Positions 3,782 through 56,978 of a stretch of DNA of 64,000 nucleotides are shown in pieces. Source of the stretch: an uncultured Candidatus Saccharibacteria bacterium. GTDB taxonomy: Bacteria > Patescibacteriota > Saccharimonadia > Saccharimonadales > AWTP1-31. Position 1 is the first letter of the stretch. Each line of letters begins with the position of its first letter. The stretch lies in the NCBI GenBank assembly GCA_964409615.1, contig CAYPDT010000002.1:1226-65225 (forward strand). Direction: 5' to 3'. The notes under the pieces are model-generated. The model saw only the letters and a list, made by a program, of their open reading frames with translations. It ran no database searches and had not been told where the DNA came from. The position numbers and the translations under genes were made by a program.

Positions 3782-3801
3782 TCAGGAAGTAAGGAAATAG
3801 T

Positions 3802-5101: not shown

Positions 5102-5102
5102 C

Positions 5103-6039: not shown

Positions 6040-6407
6040 TGATCCAACAAGAATCACGTCTCGCTGTCTGCGACAACTCTGGTGCTAAAGAGATTCTTTG
6101 CATCCGTGTGCTTGGTGGTACTCGCCGCCGATATGCACACGTGGGAGATGTTATTGTCGCAACTGTTAAACAAGCAAACCCACAGGGTAATGTTAAGAAA
6201 AAATCAGTTGTTCGTGCCGTAGTTGTTCGCACCACCAACGCTATCAAGCGTAAAGATGGCTCAACGATTCGTTTCGACGATAATGCAGCTGTTATCATTG
6301 GTGACGATAAGCTACCGAAAGCAACTCGTATCTTTGGCCCGGTTCCTCGTGAACTCCGCGACCAAGGCTACGCTAAAATTATTTCCCTCGCACCGGAGGT
6401 TCTATAA
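6039..6407 (+). CDS. rplN: 50S ribosomal protein L14 (uL14)
   Basis: [17 protein letters not shown] start; 122 aa. Confidence 0.98.
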
Positions 6408-11817: not shown

Positions 11818-13113
11818 CTAGTTTGCGAAAACTGTCTTGCGGCGGATGCTTCGTACTCGCATTGCGAGGGCGCCAAGTGCTATCACACCTGCAGCAAATG
11901 CACCAACCTCAGTAGCGTTCACACCAGTCTCGGCTAACGCAGGAGGTAATTCTGGCTTACCAACAATGGTAGTAGTTGTACTTGTCTCTTGAGGAGGCAA
12001 GCGCCAGGTGGTTTCTGGTGGAATCATCGGAAACTCTACAATTGTGTCTGGCACAGTTGTTGCCGGTGGCAACACTGGTGGTTGCGTAGTTGTTGGGGCA
12101 GCCACCGTTGTAGAGGTAGTGGATGTTGTTGATGTTGTGCTAGTAGTTGTGGGAGCGGCAGTCGTAGATGTAGTGGTCGCAGGAATAGTTGTACTAGTGG
12201 TGCAAGGTATGGTCGTACTAGTAGTAGTTGATGTCGACGGGGTTGTCGTAGTGGTTTCGTGTGTCACTTCAATACCTTCGTCAAGCGAGCTCCAGCCAGC
12301 ACTTTCGATATTTAGCCGAAGTTCAAGGTTCTGTAACTGGGCATCGGTTGGGTTTAGACCATATTGTTCTGCAAAGAAGTTTCGTAAGTCACTAACCGTT
12401 ACGTCAGTTATCTGGCCACTGTAGCCTTCGACGTTCATCTTACGTACTATCAGGTATTCTTTGCCGTTTAGAACTGCCTGCAGAGCAGCATCGTTGCCAG
12501 CTAAGTCTAAATCTGCTTGAGTTGAACCAACCGGCAGTAGTTTAGCCTCAATCGCCTTGGCGAGTGCTTGATCTTTGGTAACACCGTCTTCAAGCACACC
12601 GTTCTGGTAGTGTGAAGAGGCCGGCTTGTCACAGTCTACAGCCTGAGCGTTCTGGTTTAAGCCACAGTTTTTGATGACCATACGGACATCACCATCTCGG
12701 GCATCAACATGATATACACGTTGCTTGATTGTCACTTTTGGAAGTGGCTTAAATGTTTCAGCAGATGCTTCAGCAAATGCTGTGCCATCGAATAATGTCT
12801 CTTGCGTATCTGCTACTGCAACTTCTGTTCCGGTATTTGCTGGGCTAGCGGTCTCGGCGGTGATAGACAGGCTGCCGACAGCTTGTACAGATTGCAGCTC
12901 ACCAGTATTTGACTGGGCAAATACCAATTGCTGATCTGCTTCAGCGCCTGCGCGAGAAGCATCTACTTCTGTAATGATACTTGCTGCACTTTGCGCGTCA
13001 GGATTACCCTCGAACTGCGCAGCACCTCCAAGAGCCAAAGACTCCTGCACGGCTGGTGGCATTAGCGCTACAGCGCCTTCGCCACTTTGTAATACAATTA
13101 CTTCATTTGACAT
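11818..13113 (-). CDS. cell-wall-anchored surface protein with an LAETG sortase signal and a Thr/Ser/Pro-rich stalk
   Basis: The C-terminus reads LAETG (11923-11937), then a hydrophobic helix (VGAFAAGVIALGALAM), then RVRSIRRK. The T/S/P-rich tract is at 12079-12258. AAGGAG lies 7 nt upstream of the ATG. Confidence 0.8.
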   Translation of the reverse strand: MSNEVIVLQSGEGAVALMPPAVQESLALGGAAQFEGNPDAQSAASIITEVDASRAGAEADQQLVFAQSNTGELQSVQAVGSLSITAETASPANTGTEVAVADTQETLFDGTAFAEASAETFKPLPKVTIKQRVYHVDARDGDVRMVIKNCGLNQNAQAVDCDKPASSHYQNGVLEDGVTKDQALAKAIEAKLLPVGSTQADLDLAGNDAALQAVLNGKEYLIVRKMNVEGYSGQITDVTVSDLRNFFAEQYGLNPTDAQLQNLELRLNIESAGWSSLDEGIEVTHETTTTTPSTSTTTSTTIPCTTSTTIPATTTSTTAAPTTTSTTSTTSTTSTTVAAPTTTQPPVLPPATTVPDTIVEFPMIPPETTWRLPPQETSTTTTIVGKPELPPALAETGVNATEVGAFAAGVIALGALAMRVRSIRRKTVFAN

Positions 13114-13387
13114 ATACTTCTCCTTGGCACATGTGCGCCATTTATCGTTAGAATATATGGGATATCTCTGAAGGATTTGTATCCTTATAAAAGAGTATCG
13201 TCCCGGTTTCGCTACTTGCTCCCCGTATATCCAAGCGACCAGATACAGATAAACGGATCATTACACGACGGTTTACGTCTATAGCATAATACTACTTTTA
13301 TAACATTTTGTCAATATATGCTGTAGTCTTTCTTGCAGACCCAACAGGGCAAGTCTGGTACCTATTTGATTAGTCCAACATTATATC

Positions 13388-36921: not shown

Positions 36922-37500
36922 TTAACCTTCTGTGATACCCAACAATCTTAAGGCTTCCTCATTCTGCTCTTGTGAATCGCATACATGAAAAACATTGTCT
37001 ATCATGGGTAAGCATTTATTGCGATATGCCTCATCGTCCAATAGCAAATCAGAGTCATCAACCGCCATGTATGGTCTACTAAGCAATCCTCTGACTCCTG
37101 CAGCTTGTGATACGGTAAGCCCCTCAGAATTAAATGTTTCAGCAGAACCCTTTAGAGCTTCATAGAATTGTGGCATTTCTTGAGTACTCCCATGAAACAC
37201 ATAAGGTAAAAAAGCGACTCTTCCTAAGTAGCGTTCCATGATGATTGGAAAATATCGTCTATCTTGTTTATCTTCATAAAATACTTTCAGTAAAGTTTCG
37301 CCAACAGTGCAGGTTCGTAAATCTCGAATAACAGCAGGCCTTGTTTCAACCCTTCCAATAAAAATCCTAAGTGGGTCATGTTCATCCAGTCGCTCAGAAG
37401 TTTTTCCGCCATTTATAATATCGGAAACCAGCGGATCCAGTGTCGCGCTAAAGGCGTGGGGCTTCACCATTACTAGACCGGTCTGTTGCTCTCTACTCAT
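36922..37500 (-). CDS. nucleoside diphosphate kinase-fold protein (divergent, with insertions)
   Basis: LVMVKPHAF, FYEDKQDRRYFPIIMERYL and NVFHVCDSQE align by eye with NDK IIKPNAV, FYAEH..FF..LVEFM and NGTHGSDSVE. Confidence 0.5.
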   Translation of the reverse strand: MSREQQTGLVMVKPHAFSATLDPLVSDIINGGKTSERLDEHDPLRIFIGRVETRPAVIRDLRTCTVGETLLKVFYEDKQDRRYFPIIMERYLGRVAFLPYVFHGSTQEMPQFYEALKGSAETFNSEGLTVSQAAGVRGLLSRPYMAVDDSDLLLDDEAYRNKCLPMIDNVFHVCDSQEQNEEALRLLGITEG

Positions 37501-38227
37501 TACCTAAATCCCTAATCATATGGGTGAGTAACTTTCTCTCAGGCTTTAAAAATAGTGCTGTTCGTTGTTGATAGACTTTTAGTAGGTCTTTATGTTGTTT
37601 GAGCAAATCCCCGTAGTCGGTACTAATACCAATTGAAATATCGAAGCCTGCACGCTTAATAATTAGACGTAAAGCTTCCGGCGAATGGCTTTCAAATTCA
37701 ACATATACACCCATATTGTCAGGAAAGTAATCTACAGTAGCATTATCTTTACCAAGACTAAAGTTCTCGCGGTACTTAGCGAGCAAAATGCGCTGTTTTG
37801 TGAACCCTAAAAGCCTGCACGCTCGGCGAACTTCCTCAAGTGTCCTAGCATCAGTGATTGTCTTATCTAAACTCAATCCTACGTGAGATTGTAAAAGCTT
37901 ATTAATCGTTACAATCATCTCCGTATCTGGCTTATGTAGGTCGGTCTCGTATTCACGAAAGTGCAATATTTTGCCATCGTCCTGCTTAACCTTCAATGTC
38001 AGAAGGAGTTCTTGTGAACTAACATTTTCGACCTGCCTAAAGCGCAACAATATCTTTGCGTTCTTGCAAGCATCATCGGAGGTATCGGGCAGATAATCAG
38101 TTTCTATCGCACGAGTGCCCGCATGAAAGCCTACCCGCTGCAGTTTTTCACGCATTGCCGGTATGACACCTCGCTGAGTGCCAATTTTGAATTTTAACTC
38201 GTATTCATGCCTTTGTTTGCTAGACAT
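37493..38227 (-). CDS. CYTH-domain (triphosphate tunnel metalloenzyme) protein
   Basis: HEYELKFKI N-terminal ExExK signature, plus LLRFRQ, LTLKVK and REYETDL beta-strand motifs. The ATG at 38227 overlaps the upstream stop by 8 nt. Confidence 0.6.
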   Translation of the reverse strand: MSSKQRHEYELKFKIGTQRGVIPAMREKLQRVGFHAGTRAIETDYLPDTSDDACKNAKILLRFRQVENVSSQELLLTLKVKQDDGKILHFREYETDLHKPDTEMIVTINKLLQSHVGLSLDKTITDARTLEEVRRACRLLGFTKQRILLAKYRENFSLGKDNATVDYFPDNMGVYVEFESHSPEALRLIIKRAGFDISIGISTDYGDLLKQHKDLLKVYQQRTALFLKPERKLLTHMIRDLGNE

Positions 38228-40376
38228 GCACCCCACCTTTCTTGACTATGAACGGATTATACTCATCAGAATTATCAATAACAATGTCGGCGATATCAAC
38301 TGGACGGACAGCTTCTAGATAACGTTCCTGCGCCGGTATATAACGAGTCAAGTATTTTTTAAGGACATTAAAACCAAAGCGAGGTACGTCCCGTTCAATT
38401 GCCCTTAGGCGCATTTCTGACAAAGGAATATCAACAAATATTTTGGAGTCGAAGTAATCAGCCAGTTCAGGACGAAAAACGAACACCCCTTCGACTATAA
38501 CAACTGAGGGGCCATCACTAAATGCATAACTATGTTCTATTATCTCTGATGGATTGTGCGGACTCTGGTGTTTAAGCGCAACCGCACCAAGCTGATGTGA
38601 AGTTAAAGGTGCGAGTATGGATTTACGTAATGTCTCAATATCAAATGTATTATTGTAGTATCGCTCTACTGGGTCACTTGAAGTATTGCGTAACCAATCC
38701 GGTTGAGTAAAATCATCCACATGTATGACAACCACTGGCAACCCATGAGCCTCTAACTGCCTCTCTAGTCCACTTGAAAACGTCGTTTTGCCAGAACAGT
38801 CCACCCCGTTAATGCCGACCACGAAAGGTCTTTCTGAGTCGAACGCCTGCATTGCAATATTTTGCGCAACTTCTGTAGTAACTAAGTCTGTCTTATTTGG
38901 AGCCTCACTAAGCATTACATGTTGTGTCTCCTGTTCGGACATGAATCCCAGGCCCTGGTAATCAAGTGCGTGCTGATTTTCTCTGTACATGCGCTCGAGT
39001 GCCTGATATCCCCCCAAGTCTTTTGCGGCTGCTACCTTAATTGCCGAAAGTATATCTCTAATTTGACTCTTGAATTGCCGCCGAGCCTCTACAGGCTCCT
39101 CTTGGCTAATAAACCTATCAATAAGCTGGGCAAATGGTACACAAGCTCCAATTCGATAGCCTTTCTGGTCCACAATTCTATCCATATCGAGTTCAAGACC
39201 AAAAGTATCGTGGTATATAGAAAGCCACAACAAAGGTCCAATAAGTGACATGTCTAATTCATCCAGCGATTCTGTTAGATTCTGACTTGACCATTCCGCC
39301 ATCTCAGATTGCCATTCATTGTATCTTGTCCTACTCTGACCTAAATCAACAGTTTGATGCAAGTGCTCCCAATACGCACCCATATCAGTGAAGATGTAAT
39401 GGGTGCCGACATCCTGCCAATATCCCTGTTCAGTTCTTATACTATTTTCAAATGGATATAGCACTCCCCCTCGAAGTACTTCGTGGAATGGTGATTCGAG
39501 GTCAACACTTTTTATATCCGAACTTAGCGTAGTCAGACGCATATTAAGAGGGTTGCCTCCACAGGCAGTCATCAAAATTGCCAAACTATATAAGGTACGC
39601 CCGCGATAGAATAAGTCATCCAAGAAATAGATTGGCTCATCACGTCGTAGTGTCTCGGCTACTGACGTTCCGTGCATGAGTGCAGTAATAGCTCGGCAAT
39701 CAGGGATTGTTAAACCTGTTTCAATACAAGCCACAGCATCAGACAGCTCTGTTTGTAGATTTTCATCAGCTGCAGACGAGCTGAAAGGACCCTCTAGATT
39801 TACGTTACCTACGACCTGTAACAATTCCGCACGTGTCATTGTTGAAGCAGCGTCAATCATATCATTAGATAAAAAGGGAATAACCTCCCTAAGTTGCTCA
39901 ATCTCTACTAACGACAGTCGCTCTTCTGGGGTAAGTATTGTTAATAGCTGTGCGCTAAGGGGCGCCTTTTCGACAGACATGACCTTAATATCAGCGATTT
40001 TACTATCATATACATCTGCGGCATATGCATTCACATAACGATTTCCGCCCTGGATAATAAAGCGCGATTGACTATCTGTATGCGTAAGCCACTCGTCCAC
40101 CGCTCCCATTAACTCGCGACGCGATAGCCTATCACCTGGGCGAGTAGTGTACCTGCCAGGTATCGGGGGTCGTACTAGCAGTGGTCGTTGCGGAGAATAT
40201 TCACCCCGAGCTATCTCAAGTTCCATTTTTGTTGTTTCTACCAAATTTGGGAGACCAAGTTGTGTAATTTCCACTAACAATGCTTCTTCGGGAGCTTCCG
40301 ATATTTCGAGCTCAAAAGAGTCAAGTTCACCCTCTTGAAAAGATGGTAGCGAGCTCTCAAATAACTGGTCGGTCAT
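38220..40376 (-). CDS. 718-aa fusion protein: unknown N-terminal region, PRTase-like segment, and C-terminal uridine-kinase/PRK-type P-loop kinase
   Basis: C-terminal Walker A GINGVDCSGKTTF and VVIVEGVFVFRPEL (Udk/PRK-like). Central IYFLDDLFYRGRTL resembles the type I PRTase PRPP loop. Residues 1-250 are not assignable. Confidence 0.55.
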   Translation of the reverse strand: MTDQLFESSLPSFQEGELDSFELEISEAPEEALLVEITQLGLPNLVETTKMELEIARGEYSPQRPLLVRPPIPGRYTTRPGDRLSRRELMGAVDEWLTHTDSQSRFIIQGGNRYVNAYAADVYDSKIADIKVMSVEKAPLSAQLLTILTPEERLSLVEIEQLREVIPFLSNDMIDAASTMTRAELLQVVGNVNLEGPFSSSAADENLQTELSDAVACIETGLTIPDCRAITALMHGTSVAETLRRDEPIYFLDDLFYRGRTLYSLAILMTACGGNPLNMRLTTLSSDIKSVDLESPFHEVLRGGVLYPFENSIRTEQGYWQDVGTHYIFTDMGAYWEHLHQTVDLGQSRTRYNEWQSEMAEWSSQNLTESLDELDMSLIGPLLWLSIYHDTFGLELDMDRIVDQKGYRIGACVPFAQLIDRFISQEEPVEARRQFKSQIRDILSAIKVAAAKDLGGYQALERMYRENQHALDYQGLGFMSEQETQHVMLSEAPNKTDLVTTEVAQNIAMQAFDSERPFVVGINGVDCSGKTTFSSGLERQLEAHGLPVVVIHVDDFTQPDWLRNTSSDPVERYYNNTFDIETLRKSILAPLTSHQLGAVALKHQSPHNPSEIIEHSYAFSDGPSVVIVEGVFVFRPELADYFDSKIFVDIPLSEMRLRAIERDVPRFGFNVLKKYLTRYIPAQERYLEAVRPVDIADIVIDNSDEYNPFIVKKGGVHV

Positions 40377-47704: not shown

Positions 47705-47759
47705 TTTTAAATAACTTGTGGGAGGCTTAACAGCCGCTTGCACCACGAAAGGATACACA

Positions 47760-48737
47760 ATGGCAGAAGCTAAGAAAGAAACCACCAAAAAGAAAACTAC
47801 CAAGGCCGAAGAGCCTGCAGTAGAAGTAGTGGAAGTGGCAGAAGTGGTCGAAACAACTCCTGAAGTTGCAGCAGAAAAAACGCCAGCGGAAACCAAGCCA
47901 AAGGCCACCGCCAAAGCTGGTAAGCGCAGCGAAAAGGCTATCAAAGAAGCTGAAGAAAAAGAAGCCAAAGAAGAGCGCAAAGCTGCCGCAAAAGCAGATG
48001 AAGAAGCTCCGAAAGCTAAGCCTGCTCCAAAGACTCGAAGCATCCTAGAGCGAAAAGGCAAGAAGTTCCGTGAAGTCGCCAAGCTTGTTGAAGCTGAAAA
48101 AGACTACACTCTCAGCGAAGCTCTCAAGCTCGCTGCTAAAACTAACCCGAGCAAATTCGATGCAACCGTGGAGTTGCACATTCGCTTGAATGTTGATCCA
48201 CGCCACGCTGACCAAAACATCCGTGGCAACCTTGTACTGCCTGCTGGTACTGGTAAGAGCGTACGTGTTGCTGTGTTTGCAGAAGCAGAAGACGCTGCAA
48301 AAGCTAAGAAAGCTGGCGCAGAGATTTCGGGGATCGAAGAAGTCACTAAAGACCTGGACAAAGGGATCATTAACTTTGACGTTCTTGTTGCTGTTCCAAC
48401 TCAAATGGCTAAGCTCGGTAAGTACGCTCGTTTGCTTGGTCCACGTGGCCTTATGCCAAACCCAAAGAGTGGTACTGTTACGCCAAACGTAGTCAAAGCC
48501 GTTGAAGAAGCTAAAGCTGGTCGTATTGAATTCCGTGTCGACAGCACTGGTATCGTACACCTCGGTATTGGTAAAGTTAGCTTTGGTGATGGTAAACTTG
48601 GCGACAACGCTAAAGCAGTTATCGCTAGCATCAAGGGCGCAAAGCCTGCGAGCGTAAAAGGTAACTACGTAAAGTCTGTATTCGTTAGCTCTAGCATGGG
48701 TCCAAGTATCCGTGTTGCAGTTTCTGAGCTGAACTAA
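47760..48737 (+). CDS. rplA: 50S ribosomal protein L1 (uL1) with a roughly 95-aa Lys/Glu/Ala-rich N-terminal extension
   Basis: The L1 core starts near [10 protein letters not shown] and includes [24 protein letters not shown]. The ATG at 47760 has an AAAGGA RBS. The track's GTG at 47718 is less likely. Confidence 0.93.
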
Positions 48738-48757
48738 AGCTAGTCACTTTCATCAAG

Positions 48758-48790
48758 AGACCGCTCATCACTACTGAGCGGTCTTTTTTG
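48758..48790 (+). terminator. Rho-independent terminator after rplA
   Basis: AGACCGCTCA-TCACTAC-TGAGCGGTCT followed by TTTTT. Confidence 0.9.
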
Positions 48791-48900: not shown

Positions 48901-49707
48901 ATGATAATTATTGGCATCACAGGGTCTATCGGGCATGGCAAAACAAGTTTGGCTAAAGCATTCTTACGTCAAGTCTCTCCAGCTCAACATACTGAATCAA
49001 GTATCTTAATAAGCCGTGTTGCCGACGAGCTCAATAAAAGTTTTCCTATCGCCAACCCTACTTCGGGTGATATCGCATCAATTAATGCCTGGCTAAGTGG
49101 CCTGCCTGAAATTCTTCGGCAGGTTGCTCATTTCGCTGGAACCATTAATCCAATTCGTCTGAGCGCTGAGCCGGTTGTAGTTGCTGATCAAGATTTCCAA
49201 AAACTCCATGAATACCTAGAGCTCGTTGAAAAAAATCACTCATTAATCACACAAATTATTACGCCAGATAATAAAGATGAATACCGGCCGATACTGCAAT
49301 GGTTGGGTGCCTACATTACAAAACACGTTAGTCCTACACTTTGGTACGATGAACTTATTCGACAGGCCGCAACGGCCGAAGCTAGTGGTTGTGAATTATT
49401 CGTTATCGGCGGTATCCGATTTCCTAGCGACGGCCAGGTAATTCACCAAGCGGGAGGGCTTATCGTTGCTATCGAAAGGCCAAACATCACACAACAAGAT
49501 GCCGAAGATGCCACTGAAGCGTTTCGTTCTATGGTACCTGTCGATACAACTGTTATAAATGATGGCGCTCTGGGAGCACTCGACCATGCCGTCTATACCA
49601 TTTGGCAGGATATAAAGAACGACAATCTGCAAACACGCTATCAAGTATCACGTTTGGCATTTGATGCTACGCAATCGCCCACTATACAGGGCCGCGATAT
49701 TTTATAA
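48901..49707 (+). CDS. P-loop kinase, dephospho-CoA kinase (CoaE)-like N-terminus with a long C-terminal region
   Basis: MIIIGITGSIGHGKTSLA matches the CoaE-type GxTGxxGxGKT(S) motif. At 268 aa it is longer than a typical CoaE. Confidence 0.5.
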   Translation: MIIIGITGSIGHGKTSLAKAFLRQVSPAQHTESSILISRVADELNKSFPIANPTSGDIASINAWLSGLPEILRQVAHFAGTINPIRLSAEPVVVADQDFQKLHEYLELVEKNHSLITQIITPDNKDEYRPILQWLGAYITKHVSPTLWYDELIRQAATAEASGCELFVIGGIRFPSDGQVIHQAGGLIVAIERPNITQQDAEDATEAFRSMVPVDTTVINDGALGALDHAVYTIWQDIKNDNLQTRYQVSRLAFDATQSPTIQGRDIL

Positions 49708-49713: not shown

Positions 49714-50367
49714 TTATTCTTTGGTTGCAGGGAAGTCGGCTTTGAGCTTTTTGATGTCACCTGACGTAATGCACTCAATTTCGGTTTCTCGTTCGTTGCC
49801 CACGCTCGCCACATCCACTCCTTCGATGATATCGCGCTGGTGGTATCGGCTCTTGCGTGCAGTCACTTTGTCGCCTAAGGCTTCAAAAACGAGCTGACAG
49901 AATCGTTCGCCAGGATATAATCGGACTGTCTGTTGCTGGGTGTTATTGCGAATAGGGATAACTAACTGACCTTCATAGCCACTATCGACAATGCCTGTTT
50001 GGTCAACTGAAATTCCTTTGCGGTTAGTAGACGAACGAGGGTACATAACGGCCATAAGGTCATCGGGCACCTTAATACTCTCGAGTGAAGAAACTAAGAT
50101 ATGTTCGCCGGGCAATAAGTCAAAAAACTGACCTTTTTCTAACTCAATAATGTCGAAGTATTCTGGTTGAGTTTCGGCAAAAAAGTCTAGATGAATCTGC
50201 TCGCGCCCGCCAGCCGTAACATGCCACGACTTTGGGACTAAAAAGGTAAAACCGAGTCGTAAATCTACCGCATGAGCTTGAAGCTGAAAACTATCGAGTC
50301 CCGGCTTAAAACCTAGCGTGCCAGCCGAAACATACTCTAAAATTTGTTGTTTGGTTAGAACCGCCAT
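49714..50367 (-). CDS. dCTP deaminase/dUTPase superfamily protein (Dcd-like length, dUTPase-like motif 3)
   Basis: VDLRLG, YPRSSTNRKGI and GIVDSGYEGQLVIPIRN..YPGERFCQLVF motifs. Confidence 0.7.
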   Translation of the reverse strand: MAVLTKQQILEYVSAGTLGFKPGLDSFQLQAHAVDLRLGFTFLVPKSWHVTAGGREQIHLDFFAETQPEYFDIIELEKGQFFDLLPGEHILVSSLESIKVPDDLMAVMYPRSSTNRKGISVDQTGIVDSGYEGQLVIPIRNNTQQQTVRLYPGERFCQLVFEALGDKVTARKSRYHQRDIIEGVDVASVGNERETEIECITSGDIKKLKADFPATKE

Positions 50368-50859
50368 TTACAGTACCTCATATTCAAGCAACAGTGTATC
50401 ACGGTTAAGTTGCCGACTATTAGCAAGTTGAAGGGTGCAATCCAGAGCATCATTGAATAATGTCATGCCCGCTCCAAACAGCTTGGGCTCGAGCGTTAGG
50501 TATAATCGGTCTACTAAACCAGCTTTCATAAACAATGTATAAATTTGTTGCCCGCCACAGATTGCGATGTCTTTAAACCCGTCGCTGTGTAGCCGTGCGA
50601 TTAAAGCACCGGGTTCTTCTGTAGTTGCCTCCAGGTCCGGCAGCTGCAGTTGTTGCCGGGTCATAACAACGGTACGTCGACCTGGCAATGCTCGTCCTAT
50701 AGTCTTAAAGGTTGTGTGACCCATAATCATAACGCCCGCCTTTTTTGTAAGTTCCACAAAAACTTTCTTGTCTTCGGCGCTTGTCCAATCAGCCAGGTGC
50801 TCAGCGTCTTGTGCGATAAAACCATCGGCAGTAACGGCAGCAATAATAAATACGCTCAT
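50368..50859 (-). CDS. folA: dihydrofolate reductase (FolA/RibD_C-like)
   Basis: IIAAVTADGFIA, MIMGHTTFKTIGRALPGRRTVVMTR and ICGGQQIY align with the FolA pattern. Overlaps the ThyA-family gene by 4 nt. Confidence 0.7.
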   Translation of the reverse strand: MSVFIIAAVTADGFIAQDAEHLADWTSAEDKKVFVELTKKAGVMIMGHTTFKTIGRALPGRRTVVMTRQQLQLPDLEATTEEPGALIARLHSDGFKDIAICGGQQIYTLFMKAGLVDRLYLTLEPKLFGAGMTLFNDALDCTLQLANSRQLNRDTLLLEYEVL

Positions 50860-51692
50860 AGTACTATTTTCAACCCTTTAATTCGCTCAGCGGGTTCATA
50901 TTGAGCCACTAGCGCATCATTAATCTCTTCTACCAAACTAGTATCCCGAGCTTCTGCTCTTTGATACGAATTGGCCGGAAGTTGTATTGTGATTTTTGGC
51001 ACATCAAGTTTGCGAGATATCATTTCTTTTGCTGCCTCATAGTGGATGTCATACACATGCGCATTAGCAATAATATGAGTGTAGACGCCCGGCTCAACAC
51101 CTAGTTCTTGCGCCAAAATACATTGCAACAGTGCGAAACCTGCTACATCGTGCGGGAAGCCAAGAATCATATCATTAGATCGCACCACGTTCATCATATT
51201 CAACCGTCCGCCAATAATGTTGACGGTAAATGTATAGGGGCAAGGAACATTACCTTTACTTGTTCCGCCAAGACCATCGCTTGACGGGTCCCAGGTTACA
51301 ACCACTCCATGTCGCGAAGAAGGGTCTTTTTTAAGAAGAGCGACTAACTTGCCGAGCTGGTCACGACCGAAATGCTTGCGCCAACGATAGCCATAGGCCA
51401 CAGTAACTACATCACCAGGGTTTGTGAAGTCATCCCAAATCTTAGTGAAATCTCGAAGAAATATTTCTGGCTTGCGGGCCCCAGAAATAAACCACACTTG
51501 CTCGGCAATAAAAATTTTGGTTGGAATTTTGCGAATCGACAAGATTGGGAAGCCGTCTTTCTGCAAATCAATAGAGAACGATAGTCCTGGCAAAGCCTTT
51601 GTTTCGTGGCCGGTACGCTCATTAACTTCAGCAATACCGCGCGTCATTATGTCTTTCAGTAGACCTTGGTATATCTTGTCAAACTTCGCCAT
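50856..51692 (-). CDS. thymidylate synthase (ThyA)/dCMP hydroxymethylase superfamily enzyme with Asp at the ThyA Asn177-equivalent position
   Basis: ERTGHET, YGYRWR, DQLGKLVALLKKDPSSRH, VPCPY (catalytic Cys), VRSNDMILGFPHDVAGF and AHVYDIH motifs. Confidence 0.8.
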   Translation of the reverse strand: MAKFDKIYQGLLKDIMTRGIAEVNERTGHETKALPGLSFSIDLQKDGFPILSIRKIPTKIFIAEQVWFISGARKPEIFLRDFTKIWDDFTNPGDVVTVAYGYRWRKHFGRDQLGKLVALLKKDPSSRHGVVVTWDPSSDGLGGTSKGNVPCPYTFTVNIIGGRLNMMNVVRSNDMILGFPHDVAGFALLQCILAQELGVEPGVYTHIIANAHVYDIHYEAAKEMISRKLDVPKITIQLPANSYQRAEARDTSLVEEINDALVAQYEPAERIKGLKIVL

Positions 51693-51730
51693 TGTATTCA
51701 GATTATAAATAACTTACCCTTGAATTGACA

Positions 51731-52240
51731 ATGAATAAAGAACAAAGCCCCTCAATCGTCTACCCATACATACATCCTGAAGGCACTTTTAGGTACGTCG
51801 ATAGCACCGACGAGTTCATGCTTGCAGCCAAAGAATTTGCCCACCAGAACTCCTTAGACGACACTATGCCGACCGGAACTGTTTTGGTTAAAGACGGCGA
51901 GATTATTGGTCGTGGAGCAAATGGTAGTAATTATCACAAAGAACATGGTTGCGAGCGAGTACGACTGAACATTCCAACTGGCCAAGGCTACGATTTGTGT
52001 GAAGGTTGTAGCCCTAAAAATCATAGTGAACCCAAAGCAATCGCCGACGCCCAAGCCCACGACAAGGCGACCGATGGTGCTGAAGCATATCTGTGGGGCC
52101 ATTGGTGGTGCTGCGAGCCATGCTGGAAGGCACTTATCGGTAATGGTATTCAGGTGGTCTATCTGCAGACAGGCTCCGAAGTGTTGTTCAACAAAGAAGC
52201 CGCAGGCAATATTATTGGTCATCAGTTCGATGTACAGTAA
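51731..52240 (+). CDS. dCMP deaminase (ComEB/CDA-fold zinc deaminase)
   Basis: HSEPKAI (H[AS]E) and CCEPCWKAL (PCxxC) zinc motifs. The ATG at 51731 is preferred over the track's TTG at 51725. Confidence 0.8.
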   Translation: MNKEQSPSIVYPYIHPEGTFRYVDSTDEFMLAAKEFAHQNSLDDTMPTGTVLVKDGEIIGRGANGSNYHKEHGCERVRLNIPTGQGYDLCEGCSPKNHSEPKAIADAQAHDKATDGAEAYLWGHWWCCEPCWKALIGNGIQVVYLQTGSEVLFNKEAAGNIIGHQFDVQ

Positions 52241-52307
52241 CGAGTAATCCGGGTACAATACAAGTAACAATGTGGGGCTTAATCTTGGTTTACAGGAGGG
52301 AGTACAC

Positions 52308-54644
52308 ATGGGACAAGATGAGGAACGTACAGGCGTCTTTATAGTCATCGAGGGGACGGACGGCTCGGGCAAAGGCACTCAGTTTGCATTGCTTGCAAAA
52401 AGACTACAAGAACAGGGCTACGATGTGGCCACCTTTGATTTTCCACAGTACGATAAAGAATCCAGTTATTTTGTACGGCAATACTTAAACGGACACTACG
52501 GCACAGCTGAAGAGGTCGGACCCTACACTGGCTCACTGTTTTACGCACTCGACCGCTATGAGGCAGCGGCCAGCATCCGGCAAGCGCTTAGCGAAGGGAA
52601 GGTGGTTTTAGCCAATCGTTTTACCGGATCGAACATGGCCCATCAAGGAACAAAATTTAACAATCACGAAGAACGTCGTGGTTATTTTATATGGCTAGAT
52701 AACCTAGAGTTTGTCATGCTCAAAGTTCCACGGCCCGACAAAAGTTTCGTATTACGAGTACCGGCCGACATTGCCCAGCAGCTGGTCGACCAGAAAGAAG
52801 CACGTAGTTATACCGACAAAAAGCGAGACCTCCACGAAGCAGACTTATCCCACCTCCAACGTGCCGTAGAAGTCTACGACGACATGTGCCAGCTATTCCC
52901 ACGTGACTTTCAGCGTATCGATTGCGTACGGAGCGGTTCATTCCTCAGTATCGAAGCGGTCAGTGACCTGCTGTGGGAAACCGTTGTTCCGTTCTTACCA
53001 ACTAAACCAGGCCACTCATCCAGCAGCGCAATAGGCACAACACCCAACCCTTACATACAAAAAGATGCCTTAGGCCAGAGCAAGATTACTCAAGCAGGTA
53101 ACGACTTTCTAAACAACGCAGTAACTGATGTCAGCGGTAATATCTACGCCTTTACCAATACACTCAGTCCAACTTTAGTTGCTGCCGCCATGGCCCGACT
53201 CAGTCGACGAGGCGATGATTTACGACATATAATTTTAGAAGAGTTTGCTCAAGCTAACAACAAAGACAATGCGCTACTGCATCGTGTTATCACTGAATAT
53301 GGAGATGATTCGGTTCAGCAATTAGTCAGCTTACATTTGGTCGTCGAAAAGGCCTCGAATCTTCTGACAAAAAAATTAGAATGGGGCAGGCTAGCTGCCT
53401 ATTTGGAACAATCCACTCGCTATATTTACTTTGACCAGAAGGATGCCAGCGGAGAGTACCAATACCACACGCCAAGCACTTTCGGTCATGAACTACGTGG
53501 AGCTTATCAACTAGGAATGAACACCATTTTTGATAAATACTCTGAGTTGGTTAGTGGTCTTGTAACCTATCTGCAACAAAACTCTGCAACCCCAGAAGCT
53601 GAACGCGATACGGCATGGCGTAACGCAATCCGCGCTCAAGCCTGCGACGCAGCACGGCCAGTTTTGCCGGTTGCAACAACAGCAACAGTTGGCATCCATG
53701 CATCTGGTCAAGCTGTCGAAAACCTCATCATGAACTTACTTGGCGATGCACTTCCTGAAGCTCAGCAAGCTGGCAAAGAACTGCTTGCACAGGCTAGAAA
53801 AGTCATACCCACATTCCTCGAGCGTGCTGACGTACCCGAGCGTGGAGGGGCGACAAGTGCCTATCGAGCCACCACCCGTAATAATCTCAAACAATTAGCC
53901 AACGACCTACTGCCCGGGCAGTTTGGACAATACGAAGAACCTGTACGCCTGACAGGCGTGTGGCCGCGCAACGAGCTAGATCTTGTAGCAGACATGCTTT
54001 ATGAGCACAGTCACTTATCGCTCAAAGAAATTGAAGAACAGGTTGCTAACTGGCCCTACGATACAAAAGTTTCAGTACTAAACGCATATATGGGCGAGCG
54101 TCTTAATCGTCGCCAGCGGCCAGGTCGAGCTCTCGAAAAAGCACATTACAGTTGGGATATCGTCTGCGACTACGGTATTTTCCGCGACCTTCAACGGCAC
54201 CGCATGGTAGATGATTTACAGTGGCAACAACTTACTCCACGATATGGCTACGAAATGCCAAAACTCGTTGAAGATGCTGGCCTGAGTGAATTATTCGAAG
54301 ATTGCTTTGATATTAGCCTACGATTACACAGTGAGCTACAGGCTGCAGGCTATGACGACGAGGCACAATATGCCACACTTCTCGGCCACCGCATGCGCTG
54401 GAAAGTGACATACAACGCCCGCCAGGCATTTCATATACACGAGCTTCGCACCAGTCCACAAGGTCACCCGGGATACCGTAAACTAGTAAAAGAAATGCAT
54501 AATAAGCTTGCGGAAGCGCACCCGCTTATTGCCGAAGCAATGCGGTTTGTTAACCACGGGGACGACCCCGAACTAACCCGCTTAGCAGCAGAACGCTACA
54601 ACCAATTCAAGCAACTTCAGGCTAAACAGACTCCTCCGCAGTAA
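52308..54644 (+). CDS. fusion protein: thymidylate kinase (N-terminal) plus two tandem ThyX-like (Thy1 fold) domains with degenerate motifs
   Basis: Tmk part: VIEGTDGSGKGTQ and YALDRYEA. ThyX-like copy 1: WGRLAAYLEQSTRY and ARPVLPVATT. ThyX-like copy 2: RHRMVDDLQWQQLTPRY and HIHELRTSPQGHPGYR. GGAGGG RBS before the ATG at 52308. Confidence 0.7.
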   Translation: MGQDEERTGVFIVIEGTDGSGKGTQFALLAKRLQEQGYDVATFDFPQYDKESSYFVRQYLNGHYGTAEEVGPYTGSLFYALDRYEAAASIRQALSEGKVVLANRFTGSNMAHQGTKFNNHEERRGYFIWLDNLEFVMLKVPRPDKSFVLRVPADIAQQLVDQKEARSYTDKKRDLHEADLSHLQRAVEVYDDMCQLFPRDFQRIDCVRSGSFLSIEAVSDLLWETVVPFLPTKPGHSSSSAIGTTPNPYIQKDALGQSKITQAGNDFLNNAVTDVSGNIYAFTNTLSPTLVAAAMARLSRRGDDLRHIILEEFAQANNKDNALLHRVITEYGDDSVQQLVSLHLVVEKASNLLTKKLEWGRLAAYLEQSTRYIYFDQKDASGEYQYHTPSTFGHELRGAYQLGMNTIFDKYSELVSGLVTYLQQNSATPEAERDTAWRNAIRAQACDAARPVLPVATTATVGIHASGQAVENLIMNLLGDALPEAQQAGKELLAQARKVIPTFLERADVPERGGATSAYRATTRNNLKQLANDLLPGQFGQYEEPVRLTGVWPRNELDLVADMLYEHSHLSLKEIEEQVANWPYDTKVSVLNAYMGERLNRRQRPGRALEKAHYSWDIVCDYGIFRDLQRHRMVDDLQWQQLTPRYGYEMPKLVEDAGLSELFEDCFDISLRLHSELQAAGYDDEAQYATLLGHRMRWKVTYNARQAFHIHELRTSPQGHPGYRKLVKEMHNKLAEAHPLIAEAMRFVNHGDDPELTRLAAERYNQFKQLQAKQTPPQ

Positions 54645-55729: not shown

Positions 55730-56323
55730 ATGGCACGTCCTCATTTTCCTTGCTCCAACCCAGCAGACTTACAAGCTCCAGAAGAATTCCTGGAGCAGGA
55801 GTTACAGCACGGCAATCGATTCCCAGTTTGCAACATATCTGGGCCGATTTTTGACGCTCTGTTAGCCGAGGCAATTGCTGTAAATGACTCCGCGTTCGCA
55901 CGTAATGTAGGCTTTCTTGAAGTTAATTACCAACCACAAAGTGACGAAACGATTGCGTTGACCCAGATGATGCACCGTGTTGCGCTAATGGGATTAGTCG
56001 TCAGTGCTCGTGAGCCGCGTCGTGAAATTACTCGCTTGTTTAAAAGTGGTGATGCCGGAATTCATGTCGACTACGGCTTTGGGAATTTAGTCAACCTAAC
56101 CGCAGAAGGCCAAAGAGTTACGACGCATTTTGATAATGAGGTTAGAGACTCCCAGGCAAAACTCCTCCGAGTGGGTGACATCTCGGTAATCCCAAGTCTT
56201 ACGGCGCCGTACTATTTACAATCCGTACCACACGAGGTAGCCAGTTCTACCGAAGGCGGCCTAGTCTTGCAGTGCACCGCAATCTTTCCGCTGCGTGATC
56301 AGCGAGCTGGCTTACTAGCTTGA
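55730..56323 (+). CDS. hypothetical protein (197 aa)
   Basis: ORF with a possible HxD...H arrangement (GIHVDYG ... VPHEV). The family assignment is not secure. Confidence 0.45.
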   Translation: MARPHFPCSNPADLQAPEEFLEQELQHGNRFPVCNISGPIFDALLAEAIAVNDSAFARNVGFLEVNYQPQSDETIALTQMMHRVALMGLVVSAREPRREITRLFKSGDAGIHVDYGFGNLVNLTAEGQRVTTHFDNEVRDSQAKLLRVGDISVIPSLTAPYYLQSVPHEVASSTEGGLVLQCTAIFPLRDQRAGLLA

Positions 56324-56503
56324 CGCCGTGCACCCTAAGGTTTACCATCGAAGCTATGATTATCACACAACAAGCACAACTCCTCCTCAGACTTCCACGG
56401 CTGTGCTTCAGTGTGATTGAAGCCTGAGCGAGAGCTTCAAGTACAGCTAACCAGTCAGGCTTCAGCGCCTGATTTTAACTTTACAAAAAATGAAAGAGGA
56501 GCA

Positions 56504-56728
56504 ATGGGAATTGAAGATAGCCGATTCAGGGGCTTTACAGAATCAAACCGCGCAACCGACCGACTTGAAGCAGTACGGAGCGCCGAAATCGAACGAATAC
56601 GTCGCGACGGCAGCCTGCACGGGCAATCAGGCCGGTTAGCGGTTGCGCAGCATGTCACAGAAGTGCCAGAAGCCTGCGAACAAGTACGACCCGTCGAAGT
56701 GGTAGACGTGCAAGGCGAGATATTGTAA
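56504..56728 (+). CDS. hypothetical small protein (weak call; the track start at 56417 is a TTG)
   Basis: The ATG at 56504 is preceded by AGAGGAG. No motif recognised. Confidence 0.3.
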   Translation: MGIEDSRFRGFTESNRATDRLEAVRSAEIERIRRDGSLHGQSGRLAVAQHVTEVPEACEQVRPVEVVDVQGEIL

Positions 56729-56758: not shown

Positions 56759-56788
56759 TTGACTTGTGGCCTATGTAGTTGCTATAAT
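56759..56788 (+). promoter_or_regulatory. promoter candidate for rplJ-rplL
   Basis: TTGACT, 18-nt spacer, TATAAT. Confidence 0.55.
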
Positions 56789-56978
56789 GTACTCATCGTT
56801 ACCAAAGACAGTAGCTGACAATGAGTAATCAACGTCTTAATTTGCTACCGAGGTAGAAACATTATGTTTCAGCACTCTCATTAAGTCCTTGGCACGCTCA
56901 AGGACTTTTTAGTTTAGCGGTAACGTGAAAAACAATATAGGTCGATAGTTTTTCAAAATATACAAAGGAGAATTATCC
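56789..56978 (+). promoter_or_regulatory. structured rplJ 5' leader with an internal terminator hairpin (L10-leader-type autoregulatory element, candidate)
   Basis: 190-nt untranslated leader containing AAGTCCTTG-GCACGCT-CAAGGACTT followed by TTT (56883-56910), 68 nt before the rplJ ATG. Confidence 0.45.

What the first reader, a model, noticed from the sequence alone, without database searches (positions are those of the whole stretch)
49714..54644. Divergent supercluster concentrating five pyrimidine-deoxynucleotide enzymes
The minus strand carries a Dcd/Dut-family protein, DHFR and the ThyA-family enzyme. They are contiguous: 50367/50368 abut and 50856-50859 overlap. The plus strand, only 38 bp away, carries dCMP deaminase and the Tmk-ThyX-like fusion.

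A CoaE-like P-loop kinase (48901-49707) abuts the block convergently, 6 bp away.

It is unusual to find every step from dCTP/dCMP to dTDP at one locus around a shared 38-bp divergent control region. This is more striking given that three of the five proteins carry non-canonical active-site features (described in separate findings). It suggests a co-regulated and possibly horizontally acquired dTMP or modified-pyrimidine module.
Basis: partly seen in the sequence, partly recalled or inferred. Interest (0 to 1): 0.6.

Follow-up and report, generated by a model that had tools for sequence, protein, structure and literature searches.

The report
Cytosine-type thymidylate gene cassette in Saccharibacteria
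A tight cluster of DNA-precursor genes in an ultra-small (Patescibacteria) bacterium carries a "thymidylate synthase" with the active-site signature of phage enzymes that methylate dCMP rather than dUMP, so this large bacterial group may make thymidine by methylating cytosine first and deaminating it afterwards.

Summary
Coordinates, abutting and overlapping genes and the 38-bp divergent gap are as described. The flanking kinase is a T4-gp1-type dNMP kinase, not CoaE-like.

The window is a Candidatus Saccharimonadales chromosome. The cluster sits between the rplKA and rplJL operons.

The core is dCMP deaminase divergent from ThyA-like, with or without DHFR, followed by a Dcd-like gene. This core is not unusual: it recurs in 75-76 of 80 Patescibacteria loci, often with SHMT and Tmk.

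- **ThyA-like enzyme.** All 80 homologues carry Asp at E. coli Asn177, plus Pro147, Asn143 and Phe83. Xp12-family phage dCMP methyltransferases, the closest characterised relatives, share this signature.
- **Dcd-like protein.** The deaminase Glu is always Pro. A canonical Dut co-occurs in 24 loci.
- **Close relatives.** Genomes with 97-99% identical NusG and L11 carry a Glu-bearing Dcd in place of this 4-gene block, so the block is a swapped-in cassette.

Best model (inferred, not shown): dCTP → dCMP → 5-methyl-dCMP → dTMP → dTDP, alongside the ThyX route.

Rivals are canonical dUMP chemistry and 5mC-substituted DNA. I found no report of this pathway in cellular organisms.

The parts
48901..49707 (+). 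T4-gp1-type deoxynucleoside monophosphate kinase (DNMK). It is a neighbour of the cassette, not part of it.
   Evidence: It matches PHROG 139 at E 2e-17 over its full length and Pfam PF21448. Only 35 homologues were found, all in Saccharibacteria or other Patescibacteria. It always lies directly after rplA, whichever thymidylate genes follow. It is absent from all 80 D177 loci.
49714..50367 (-). Dcd/Dut-fold nucleotide triphosphate pyrophosphatase that lacks the deaminase glutamate. Predicted function: dCTP to dCMP plus PPi.
   Evidence: Pfam DCD matches at 5.7e-32 and dUTPase at 2.5e-15. The position of E. coli Dcd Glu138 is Pro in all 73 aligned Patescibacteria orthologues. The Dut-like motifs 'G.ID.GY.G.L' and 'PGER.CQ..F' are kept, the Dcd 'RSS.NR' motif is kept, and Dut motif 5 is absent. 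A separate canonical Dut is present in 24 of 80 loci.
50368..50859 (-). Dihydrofolate reductase.
   Evidence: Pfam DHFR_1 matches at 1.8e-18. It abuts the Dcd-like gene and overlaps ThyA-like by 4 bp. DHFR sits in the operon in 41 of 80 loci. folA genes from other CPR genomes complement E. coli ΔfolA (PMC11974145).
50856..51692 (-). ThyA-family enzyme with the cytosine-specific signature (Asp177, Pro147, Asn143, Phe83, Val165 in E. coli numbering). Predicted dCMP C5-methyltransferase.
   Evidence: Pfam Thymidylat_synt matches at 1.1e-51. PDB alignments show 'GFPHDVAG' against 'GVPFNIAS'. The signature is invariant in 80 of 80 homologues and shared with the Xp12-family phage enzymes. Of the nearest 150 cluster representatives, 130 have Asp177. 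blastp gives PaMx28 171 bits, E. coli ThyA 102 bits and T4 gp42 41 bits.
51693..51730 (.). 38-bp divergent intergenic region holding a sigma-70-like promoter for the minus-strand operon.
   Evidence: TTGTCA-18-TATAAT scores 11 of 12 on the minus strand at 51731..51702. The -10 box ends 9 nt before the ThyA-like ATG. TATAAT lies 6-11 nt upstream of the ATG in the 8 relatives where it is seen (L001-L006, L010, L012).
51731..52240 (+). dCMP-deaminase-family zinc deaminase of a Patescibacteria-specific subtype. Predicted to deaminate 5-methyl-dCMP to dTMP, and probably dCMP to dUMP as well.
   Evidence: Pfam dCMP_cyt_deam_1 matches at 5.8e-10. HxE and CxxC are conserved, together with a lineage-specific H..C.R...G..Y..C.GC insertion and a 'GHWW' motif, in 78 sequences. 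It is divergent and adjacent to ThyA-like in 75 of 80 loci.
52272..54644 (+). Fusion of dTMP kinase (about 52272-53036) with a tandem, divergent ThyX-like domain (about 53082-54644).
   Evidence: Pfam Thymidylate_kin matches at 9.4e-20 and Thy1 at 2.4e-33 in two stretches. The 120 best homologues listed, 67-98% identical, carry both domains (PF02223, PF02511); those with a source name are Saccharibacteria, Saccharimonadales or Patescibacteria, and many columns are invariant. The N-terminal repeat has lost RHR (now WGR) but keeps S-T-R-Y. The C-terminal repeat keeps RHR, T-P-R-Y and ELRTS. In relatives it is paired with a Glu-bearing Dcd as the only thymidylate synthase in the locus.

Best explanation
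The locus is a thymidylate-supply module made of two parts.

**Resident part.** The Saccharibacteria Tmk-ThyX fusion converts dUMP to dTMP to dTDP. A phage-type dNMP kinase lies next to it.

**Swapped-in cassette (49714-52240).** This four-gene block is the standard module of Patescibacteria. In this lineage it replaced the usual Glu-bearing dCTP deaminase.

Proposed chemistry of the cassette:
1. The Dcd/Dut-fold protein has lost the deaminase glutamate. It hydrolyses dCTP to dCMP and PPi without deaminating it.
2. The ThyA-family enzyme carries the cytosine-specific Asp177/Pro147 signature. It reductively methylates dCMP to 5-methyl-dCMP with methylene-THF.
3. DHFR recycles the dihydrofolate, with SHMT doing its part in most other lineages.
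4. The divergently transcribed deaminase converts 5-methyl-dCMP to dTMP. It can also supply dUMP to ThyX.
5. Tmk then makes dTDP.

Methylation therefore comes before deamination, the reverse of the textbook order, as recently proposed for Xp12-like phages.

**Shown:** gene content, synteny, the residue signatures and their conservation, and the cassette replacement. **Inferred:** every substrate specificity.
For: **Asp177 signature**
- Asp177, Pro147, Asn143 and Phe83 are present in 80 of 80 homologues and in the window.
- The nearest 98 or so of 150 cluster representatives, drawn from 1.84 billion proteins, are all Asp177. Canonical W/L/H/Q/N types appear only at 141 bits or below.

**Closest characterised relatives**
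- These are the Xp12-family enzymes, at 165-171 bits against 102 for E. coli ThyA and 41 for T4 gp42.
- The Xp12 enzyme makes 5mdCMP. Five of seven tested Asp177 enzymes did the same. Deaminases encoded next to them prefer 5mC, which gives dTMP from 5mdC nucleotides (bioRxiv 10.1101/2024.12.05.627091).
- Positions 177 and 147 are the top discriminators of cytosine-modified DNA (eLife PMC8670742).

**Methylase rather than hydroxymethylase**
- DHFR lies in the operon in 41 of 80 loci and SHMT occurs in 56 of 80.
- Arg21 and a TS-like C-terminal I-V-L are conserved.
- Together these point to reductive methylation that produces DHF.

**Role of the Dcd-like protein**
- Glu138 is Pro in 73 of 73 sequences.
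- A canonical Dut co-occurs in 24 loci.
- The Pro-type Dcd-like covaries with Asp177 ThyA. The Glu-type Dcd covaries with ThyX-only loci.

**Gene fusions and neighbourhood**
- Fusions exist of deaminase with Asp177 TS (P0260) and of a MazG-like NTP pyrophosphatase with Asp177 TS (P0268).
- Tmk lies directly after the deaminase in 14 loci.
Against: - No enzyme of this clade has been assayed. Specificity is inferred from residues and from phage relatives only 34-41% identical.
- This genome also has ThyX, so the ThyA-like route is not needed for dTMP here.
- A canonical Dut sits in 24 of the clusters. That fits a dUMP-using synthase at least as well.
- Dcd-like dUTPases without the Glu exist in archaea (my knowledge; weak NCBIfam PRK02253 hit), so the Dcd-like protein could be a dUTPase.
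- I could not check whole genomes for other thymidylate synthases.
- The characterised phage deaminase mSCD-B5 needs triphosphates, not monophosphates.
Confidence: 0.5

Rival explanations
1. Textbook chemistry. The Dcd-like protein is a dUTPase, the deaminase makes dUMP from dCMP, and the ThyA-like enzyme methylates dUMP despite Asp177. DHFR recycles folate and Tmk-ThyX is a redundant second route. On this reading the cluster is an ordinary thymidylate regulon.
For: - Every gene has a canonical family assignment.
- SHMT, DHFR, Tmk and often a canonical Dut lie in the same neighbourhood.
- Published CPR reconstructions annotate these genes as thyA and folA.
- Archaeal Dcd-like dUTPases lack the Glu (my knowledge).
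Against: - Asp177 with Pro147, Asn143 and Phe83 is invariant and shared with enzymes that make 5mdCMP.
- Asn-to-Asp and Asp-to-Asn swaps reverse dUMP/dCMP preference in both TS and T4 hydroxymethylase (Liu and Santi 1992; Graves 1992, cited).
- It leaves the Dcd-like protein without a role where a canonical Dut is also present.
- It does not explain why Pro-type Dcd-like tracks Asp177 ThyA.
Confidence: 0.3
2. Pre-replicative DNA modification. 5-methyl-dCMP is phosphorylated, here possibly by the adjacent gp1-type dNMP kinase, and is incorporated into DNA. The Dcd-like dCTPase depletes dCTP. The organism's own DNA then carries 5-methylcytosine in place of some or all cytosine, as in phage Xp12.
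For: - The gene set mirrors the phage toolkit: NTP pyrophosphatase, Asp177 TS, deaminase and DHFR.
- In this genome a T4-gp1-type dNMP kinase lies 6 bp away.
- In E. coli, an Asp177 TS plus gp1 is enough to put 5mC into DNA.
Against: - No cellular organism is known to do this.
- The kinase is absent from all 80 other loci. It goes with rplA, not with the cassette.
- Tmk, SHMT and the deaminase point to thymidylate as the end product.
- Many Patescibacteria genomes come from long-read sequencing, and I found no report of global 5mC in the searches I ran.
Confidence: 0.08
3. The ThyA-like enzyme is a dCMP hydroxymethylase of the T4 gp42 type. It would make 5-hydroxymethyl-dCMP for further modification or for 5hmdUMP.
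For: - Asp177 is shared with T4 gp42.
- One Saccharibacteria locus (L087) has a glycosyltransferase and a kinase near its thymidylate genes.
Against: - Similarity to T4 gp42 is only 41 bits and 23% identity.
- The TS-like C-terminus and Arg21 are kept, and both are missing in gp42.
- DHFR in the operon implies DHF production, which a hydroxymethylase does not cause.
- The thymidylate synthase of L087 is a canonical Asn177 type.
Confidence: 0.05

Closest known systems
Xp12-family / Pamexvirus phage dCMP methyltransferase module (thymidylate-synthase homologue, dCMP deaminase, nucleotide pyrophosphohydrolase, with or without DHFR)
   Same: - It shares the Asp177, Pro147, Asn143 and Phe83 signature and the 'DP..DGLG....NVPCP' insertion.
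- These are the best characterised relatives, at 34-41% identity.
- The enzyme triad and DHFR are the same.
- A route from 5mdC nucleotides to thymidine nucleotides through the neighbouring deaminase has been proposed for them.
   Different: - The present module is chromosomal, sits next to ribosomal-protein operons, and is conserved across a bacterial superphylum.
- Its pyrophosphatase has the Dcd/Dut fold, not the MazG/PRA-PH or HAD fold.
- Its deaminase is a separate subfamily with an extra Cys/His insertion.
- It is linked to SHMT and Tmk.
- Its purpose is presumably thymidylate supply rather than replacement of genomic cytosine.
Canonical ThyA-FolA thymidylate cycle (E. coli type) with Dcd/Dut or dCMP deaminase
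   Same: The fold families are the same, and Cys146, Arg166, Ser167, Asp169, Tyr94, Glu58 and His207 are conserved. The folate cycle partners are the same.
   Different: Asn177 is Asp, His147 is Pro, Gln165 is Val or Ile, Leu143 is Asn and Trp83 is Phe. The Dcd-like protein lacks Glu138. The predicted order of methylation and deamination is reversed.
Saccharibacteria Dcd(Glu) plus Tmk-ThyX pair at the same rplA-rplJ slot
   Same: The chromosomal slot, the Tmk-ThyX fusion, the DNMK neighbour and the ilvE neighbour are all the same.
   Different: The window lacks the Glu-bearing Dcd (236-237 aa). In its place is the four-gene Asp177 cassette, and it is so in otherwise nearly identical surroundings.
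T4 dNTP-synthesis genes (gp42 dCMP hydroxymethylase, gp56 dCTPase, cd, frd, td, gp1)
   Same: The logic is the same: a dCTPase feeds a cytosine-specific thymidylate-synthase homologue, with a deaminase, DHFR and a gp1-type kinase nearby.
   Different: gp42 is only distantly related (41 bits) and C-terminally truncated. gp56 did not align with the Dcd/Dut fold. No glucosyltransferases are present here.

Membership tests
Canonical thymidylate synthase ThyA (dUMP-specific, EC 2.1.1.45) | Asn177 (E. coli numbering), which reads O4/N3-H of dUMP, supported by His147 and Gln165 | tested here: not met
   The window has Asp177, Pro147 and Val165. Asp177 is present in 80 of 80 homologues.
Canonical thymidylate synthase ThyA (dUMP-specific, EC 2.1.1.45) | Catalytic Cys146 and the phosphate-binding and folate-site residues (Arg21, Arg126, Arg166, Ser167, Asp169, Tyr94, Glu58, His207, Tyr209) | tested here: met
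   All are conserved in the window and in 80 of 80 homologues. Pfam PF00303 matches at 176 bits.
Xp12-type dCMP C5-methyltransferase clade of the TS superfamily | Asp at position 177 together with a non-His residue at 147. These are the two positions that discriminate cytosine-modifying enzymes. | tested here: met
   
Xp12-type dCMP C5-methyltransferase clade of the TS superfamily | Closer in sequence to Xp12-family enzymes than to canonical ThyA or to T4 gp42 | tested here: met
   Scores are 165-171 bits against 102 and 41 bits. The nearest 98 or so cluster representatives are all Asp177.
Xp12-type dCMP C5-methyltransferase clade of the TS superfamily | Formation of 5-methyl-dCMP from dCMP and methylene-THF | not testable with these tools
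   This needs an enzyme assay or LC-MS.
T4-type dCMP hydroxymethylase | Asp177 equivalent together with loss of the TS C-terminal lid and of Arg21. No DHF is produced. | tested here: not met
   The C-terminal I-V-L and Arg21 are kept, and gp42 has Lys21 and no aligned C-terminus. DHFR is in the operon. Similarity is only 41 bits.
dCTP deaminase (Dcd / bifunctional Dcd:Dut) | Catalytic Glu138 (E. coli) in the 'VLE' strand | tested here: not met
   The position is Pro in the window and in 73 of 73 orthologues. The paralogous Dcd in relatives keeps Glu.
dCTP deaminase (Dcd / bifunctional Dcd:Dut) | Overall Dcd fold with the N-terminal extension and the Ser111/Arg115 motif | tested here: met
   TIGR02274 scores 108 bits against a cut-off of 92.8. 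Pfam DCD matches at 5.7e-32. 'RSS.NR' is conserved.
Trimeric dUTPase (Dut) | Five Dut motifs, including the C-terminal motif 5 (RGxxGFGSTG) | tested here: not met
   Equivalents of motifs 2-4 are present, but motif 5 is absent. Canonical Dut with motif 5 occurs separately in 24 loci. Substrate choice between dUTP and dCTP could not be tested.
Flavin-dependent thymidylate synthase ThyX | ThyX motif RHR(x7-8)S.RY and the Thy1 fold | tested here: inconclusive
   Pfam Thy1 matches at 2.4e-33 in two repeats. The C-terminal repeat keeps RHR, then T-P-R-Y after a 3-residue longer spacer. The N-terminal repeat has WGR. TIGR02170 is below its cut-off. phmmer found no PDB hit and the AF2 model was poor, at pLDDT 51.
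dTMP kinase (Tmk) | P-loop GxDGxGK(S/T)T and the Tmk fold | tested here: met
   'EGTDGSGKGTQ' is present. Pfam PF02223 matches at 9.4e-20. NCBIfam NF005923 scores 124 bits, below its equivalog cut-off of 193.
T4 gp1-type dNMP kinase (DNMK) | A full-length match to the phage dNMP kinase family | tested here: met
   PHROG 139 matches at E 2e-17 over residues 1-247. PF21448 scores 32.5 bits against a cut-off of 27.1. Substrate range was not tested.
dCMP deaminase (zinc-dependent, PF00383) | The HxE and (P)CxxC zinc-binding motifs | tested here: met
   HSE and C-E-P-C are conserved in 78 sequences. Pfam scores 39.4 bits against a cut-off of 25. Preference between dCMP and 5-methyl-dCMP could not be tested.

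The most novel reading that the evidence does not exclude
Patescibacteria that carry this module put 5-methylcytosine into their own DNA before replication, from a 5-methyl-dCTP pool. This could be partial or complete replacement of cytosine, as in phage Xp12. In this genome the adjacent gp1-type dNMP kinase would supply the phosphorylation step. It would be the first cellular organism with a pre-replicatively substituted canonical base.
Probability: 0.08. Interest if true: 0.97.

Novelty: new variant of a known kind. Interest (0 to 1): 0.72.

Why it matters
Thymidylate synthesis is regarded as universal chemistry: dUMP is methylated by ThyA or ThyX. If the Asp177 enzymes of Patescibacteria methylate dCMP and the neighbouring deaminase then makes dTMP, a major bacterial radiation would use a third route to thymidine. 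Until now that route has been proposed only for a few phages.

- **A route without uracil nucleotides.** It bypasses dUMP and dUTP, which is relevant to uracil avoidance and to genome reduction.
- **Annotation.** Metabolic reconstructions currently label these genes thyA, dcd and so on. Those labels would need changing.
- **Reagents.** It would be a large new source of dCMP methyltransferases and of deaminases that may be selective for 5mC, both useful in methylome sequencing.
- **Origin of the phage toolkit.** It bears on where phage cytosine-modification genes came from.
- **Gene replacement.** The swap at a fixed slot between two ribosomal-protein operons is a clean natural example of non-orthologous pathway replacement.

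Tried and rejected
- **ThyX-like structure.** The AlphaFold model of the ThyX-like half, built from a shallow 10-sequence alignment, had pLDDT 51. It was unusable, so I ran no fold search.
- **ThyX-like against PDB.** phmmer found nothing. A profile search gave only a weak hit to M. tuberculosis ThyX (E 0.03).
- **T4 gp56 as a reference for the Dcd-like protein.** It did not align with the Dcd/Dut fold, so I dropped it.
- **Defence-system reading.** I considered dCTP-depletion defence. PADLOC gave no hits, and the gene is conserved as a housekeeping gene next to the thymidylate-synthase homologue.
- **Recent foreign origin judged from composition.** GC of the cluster is 0.45-0.49, the same as the window's 0.41-0.49. 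Composition therefore gives no signal. The evidence for replacement comes from synteny.
- **Dictyostelium Dcd2.** It is reported to nest within CPR Dcd sequences and to complement E. coli Δdcd. I could not establish whether that CPR clade is the Pro type or the Glu type, so I did not use it.
- **The kinase as a 5-methyl-dCMP kinase tied to the cassette.** I rejected this as a general link. The kinase occurs with Dcd(Glu)/ThyX loci and with a canonical Asn177 locus as well.
- **Prior reports.** Literature searches for this pathway in CPR or other cellular organisms found none.
- **Canonical copies elsewhere in the genome.** I could not test this. Only the 64-kb window is available, and it holds no second copy.

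Full report
**What is there.** The window is a bacterial chromosome with long ribosomal-protein operons. Proteins identical or near-identical to those in the cluster come from Candidatus Saccharimonadales and other Patescibacteria assemblies.

The genes lie between the rplK-rplA operon, whose strong terminator-like hairpin is at 48755-48787, and the L10 leader RNA at 56784-56920, which precedes rplJ-rplL.

- kinase 48901-49707 (+)
- Dcd/Dut-family 49714-50367 (-)
- DHFR 50368-50859 (-)
- ThyA-family 50856-51692 (-)
- a 38-bp gap
- dCMP deaminase 51731-52240 (+)
- Tmk-ThyX fusion 52272-54644 (+)

Pfam and NCBIfam confirm every family. One label needs correcting. The kinase is a T4-gp1-type dNMP kinase (PHROG 139, E 2e-17 over its full length; PF21448), not a CoaE-like enzyme.

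**The ThyA-family enzyme has a cytosine-type active site.** Alignments to solved thymidylate synthases show 'GFPHDVAGFALL' opposite 'GVPFNIASYALL', and 'PCP' opposite 'PCH'.

I aligned the window protein and its 80 genomic homologues to E. coli ThyA. Its numbering checks out at C146, N177, E58, Y94, R166 and D169.
- Every homologue has Asp at Asn177 and Asn at Leu143.
- Pro at His147 occurs in 77, and Leu in the other 3.
- Every homologue has Phe at Trp83 and Val or Ile at Gln165.
- The catalytic Cys, the phosphate-binding arginines, Tyr94, Glu58, Arg21 and a C-terminal I-V-L are kept.

Positions 177 and 147 are the two residues that best separate cytosine-modifying thymidylate-synthase homologues from true thymidylate synthases. 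Asn/Asp swaps at 177 reverse dUMP/dCMP preference (eLife PMC8670742).

In a search of 1.84 billion cluster representatives, 130 of the 150 nearest have Asp177. Canonical W83/L143/H147/Q165/N177 sequences appear only from about rank 99.

The best matches among sequenced phages are the Xp12/Bosa/PaMx28 group, at 34-41% identity. Their proteins share the signature. The Xp12 protein is 78% identical to that of Bosa.

By blastp the window protein scores 171 and 165 bits against PaMx28 and Bosa, 102 against E. coli ThyA and 41 against T4 gp42.

A 2024 preprint reports three things (bioRxiv 10.1101/2024.12.05.627091). The Xp12 enzyme, and five of seven tested Asp177 enzymes, make 5-methyl-dCMP. Such enzymes co-localise with dCMP-deaminase genes in cytosine-modified phages. 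Those deaminases prefer 5-methylcytosine, which suggests that thymidine nucleotides are made from 5mdC nucleotides.

**The Dcd-like protein is neither a deaminase nor the sole dUTPase.** At the position of the catalytic Glu138 of E. coli Dcd, with the same spacing from the conserved Asp and Asn, the window protein and 73 of 73 orthologues have Pro. Dut-like motifs 3 and 4 and the Dcd 'RSS.NR' motif are kept. Dut motif 5 is missing. In 24 of the 80 related loci a separate canonical Dut, with motif 5, lies nearby. Hydrolysis of dCTP to dCMP is therefore the most economical assignment. This is an inference.

**The core arrangement is the norm in Patescibacteria.** The genome scan returned 230 relatives. 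The best 80 are 65-78% identical and carry titles from Saccharibacteria, Paceibacteria, Kaiser-, Taylor-, Adler-, Colwell-, Vogel-, Doudna- and Moraniibacteria and Minisyncoccia.

Counts across the 80 loci:
- The deaminase is divergent and adjacent in 75, with a median estimated gap of 31 bp.
- The Dcd-like gene follows ThyA-like in 76.
- DHFR lies between or after them in 41.
- SHMT is present in 56, typically as tmk, glyA and cdd in one direction, divergent from thyA.
- Tmk directly follows the deaminase in 14.

The ThyX domain is found only in the Saccharibacteria loci.

Among the Asp177 cluster representatives there are natural fusions of deaminase with thymidylate-synthase homologue (P0260) and of MazG-like pyrophosphatase with thymidylate-synthase homologue (P0268). 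These repeat the same functional triad.

**In this lineage the four-gene block is a swapped-in cassette.** The closest long contigs are L093 and L094. Their identity to the window is as follows:

| Protein | Identity to window |
|---|---|
| NusG | 97-98% |
| L11 | 97-99% |
| L10 | 89-90% |
| L7/L12 | 96-98% |
| ilvE | 82-89% |
| DNMK | 63-76% |
| Tmk | 76-83% |

Their gene order is the same as in the window, from SecE through rplL.

Between DNMK and Tmk-ThyX, however, they carry a single 236-aa Dcd that keeps the catalytic Glu ('WTMEIYN'). The same Dcd(Glu) plus Tmk-ThyX pair occupies the slot in L086, L089, L090/L091 and L092. In P0175 the two are fused into one protein.

Genomes that share the Asp177 block (L001-L006) are more distant, with L10 at 52-65% identity. 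A third variant, L087, has a canonical Asn177 ThyA with DHFR.

Two conclusions follow:
- The Pro-type Dcd-like tracks Asp177 ThyA, and the Glu-type Dcd tracks ThyX-only loci.
- The segment 49708-52271 replaced about 0.8 kb holding dcd.

Base composition gives no signal of foreign origin.

One virus-classified contig, L095, carries a Patescibacteria-type deaminase, an Asp177/Pro147 thymidylate-synthase homologue (60% identity), a HAD protein and a Dut. It is a possible vehicle for transfer.

**The Tmk-ThyX fusion.** It is conserved among Saccharibacteria-type genomes: the 120 best homologues listed, 67-98% identical, all carry both domains. Many columns are invariant.

The ThyX-like part is a tandem of two Thy1 repeats. 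The N-terminal repeat has lost RHR (now WGR) but keeps S-T-R-Y and the R..A..R..LP.AT helix. The C-terminal repeat keeps RHR, T-P-R-Y, N.R and ELRTS.

It is the only thymidylate synthase in the Dcd(Glu) loci, so it is probably a working ThyX. Membership could not be settled structurally.

**Most likely mechanism.**
1. dCTP is hydrolysed to dCMP by the Dcd-like protein.
2. dCMP is reductively methylated to 5-methyl-dCMP by ThyA(Asp177).
3. DHF is recycled by DHFR, together with SHMT in most other lineages.
4. 5-methyl-dCMP is deaminated to dTMP by the divergently encoded deaminase.
5. dTMP is phosphorylated by Tmk.

In this genome the deaminase can also feed dUMP to ThyX.

I favour a methylase over a hydroxymethylase for three reasons: DHFR in the operon, the retained Arg21 and C-terminal lid, and the much closer relation to the Xp12 enzyme than to gp42.

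All substrate assignments are inferred, and I give the whole model about 0.5.

The main rival is plain dUMP chemistry (0.3). It is favoured by the co-located Dut and by the textbook look of the gene set. The invariant cytosine-type signature counts against it.

Genome-wide 5mC substitution (about 0.08) is not excluded. It would be extraordinary.

**Regulation.** On the minus strand, TTGTCA-18-TATAAT (11 of 12) lies at 51731..51702, and its -10 box ends 9 nt before the ThyA-like ATG. TATAAT lies 6-11 nt upstream of the ATG in L001-L006, L010 and L012. A -10-like hexamer lies within 15 nt of the ATG in 58 of 75 loci. This suggests a leaderless or nearly leaderless transcript. The deaminase promoter must overlap the same AT-rich stretch or lie inside thyA-like. 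None of this has been tested.

**Novelty.** Papers on CPR metabolism treat these genes as ordinary thyA and folA. Searches for dCMP methylase or 5-methyl-dCMP pathways found only phage, mutant-enzyme and eukaryotic-salvage work. I rate the finding as a new variant of a known kind: a cellular, housekeeping version of the phage 5mdCMP route, with a different pyrophosphatase fold and linked folate-cycle genes.

Noticed in passing
window 51693-51731; L001-L006, L010, L012 upstream of the ThyA-like start: A TATAAT box lies 6-11 nt upstream of the ThyA-like ATG, with no room for a Shine-Dalgarno sequence. It is conserved in relatives. A -10-like hexamer lies within 15 nt of the ATG in 58 of 75 loci. 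The operon may be transcribed as a leaderless mRNA.
   Followed up: partly
L087 7001-14747 (GCA_039915295.1, JBDSNO010000007.1): This is a third version of the same rplA-rplJ slot. Its genes are DNMK, a cytidylyltransferase-like gene, HIT-Nudix, a 324-aa deaminase, an APH-type kinase, a GT4 glycosyltransferase, a canonical Asn177 ThyA, DHFR and Tmk-ThyX. A kinase and a glycosyltransferase beside nucleotide genes could mean a further nucleotide or DNA modification, or could be coincidence.
   Followed up: partly
window 51731-52240 and 78 orthologues: The Patescibacteria deaminase has a lineage-specific insertion with a conserved H..C.R...G..Y..C.GC pattern, possibly a second metal site. It also has 'GHWW' in place of the usual Pro before the zinc-binding CxxC. 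Neither feature occurs in the Xp12-family deaminases.
   Followed up: partly
P0175 (1047 aa; 406-kb contig): This is a single protein fusing Dcd (Glu type), Tmk and the tandem ThyX. It links dCTP deamination, thymidylate synthesis and phosphorylation in one chain.
   Followed up: partly
L095 (IMGVR_UViG_3300025858_000007) 1982-7250: This virus-classified contig carries a Patescibacteria-type deaminase overlapping an Asp177/Pro147 thymidylate-synthase homologue (60% identity to the window), a HAD_SAK_2 protein and a canonical Dut. It may be a phage of Patescibacteria that carries the pair.
   Followed up: partly
window 13192-13277 (-): Rfam matches a c-di-GMP-II-GAG riboswitch aptamer (42.1 bits, gathering score 40). 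It lies upstream of a 431-aa ORF at 11818-13113 (-), and this is a reduced-genome bacterium.
   Followed up: no
window 47718-48737 (+): Ribosomal protein L1 has a roughly 110-residue N-terminal extension rich in Lys, Ala and Glu (339 aa if read from the GVG start). Relatives have L1 of 299-336 aa.
   Followed up: no
window 36922-40376 (-): This is an operon-like run of three genes: an unassigned 192-aa protein, a CYTH-domain protein, and a 718-aa protein with a C-terminal uridine-kinase/PRK-family domain. It could be further nucleotide-salvage machinery.
   Followed up: no
L093 14339-17312; L094 16085-18325: In the closest relatives, an IS1595 transposase, a relaxase-like protein, MazEF and a bAvd gene lie just beyond rplL. 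These mobile-element genes sit near the slot where the cassette swap occurred. They are not seen at that position in the window.
   Followed up: no
window 55730-56728 (+): Two ORFs without family matches (197 aa and 103 aa) lie between ilvE and the L10 leader. The first has a 44%-identical counterpart in L093.
   Followed up: no
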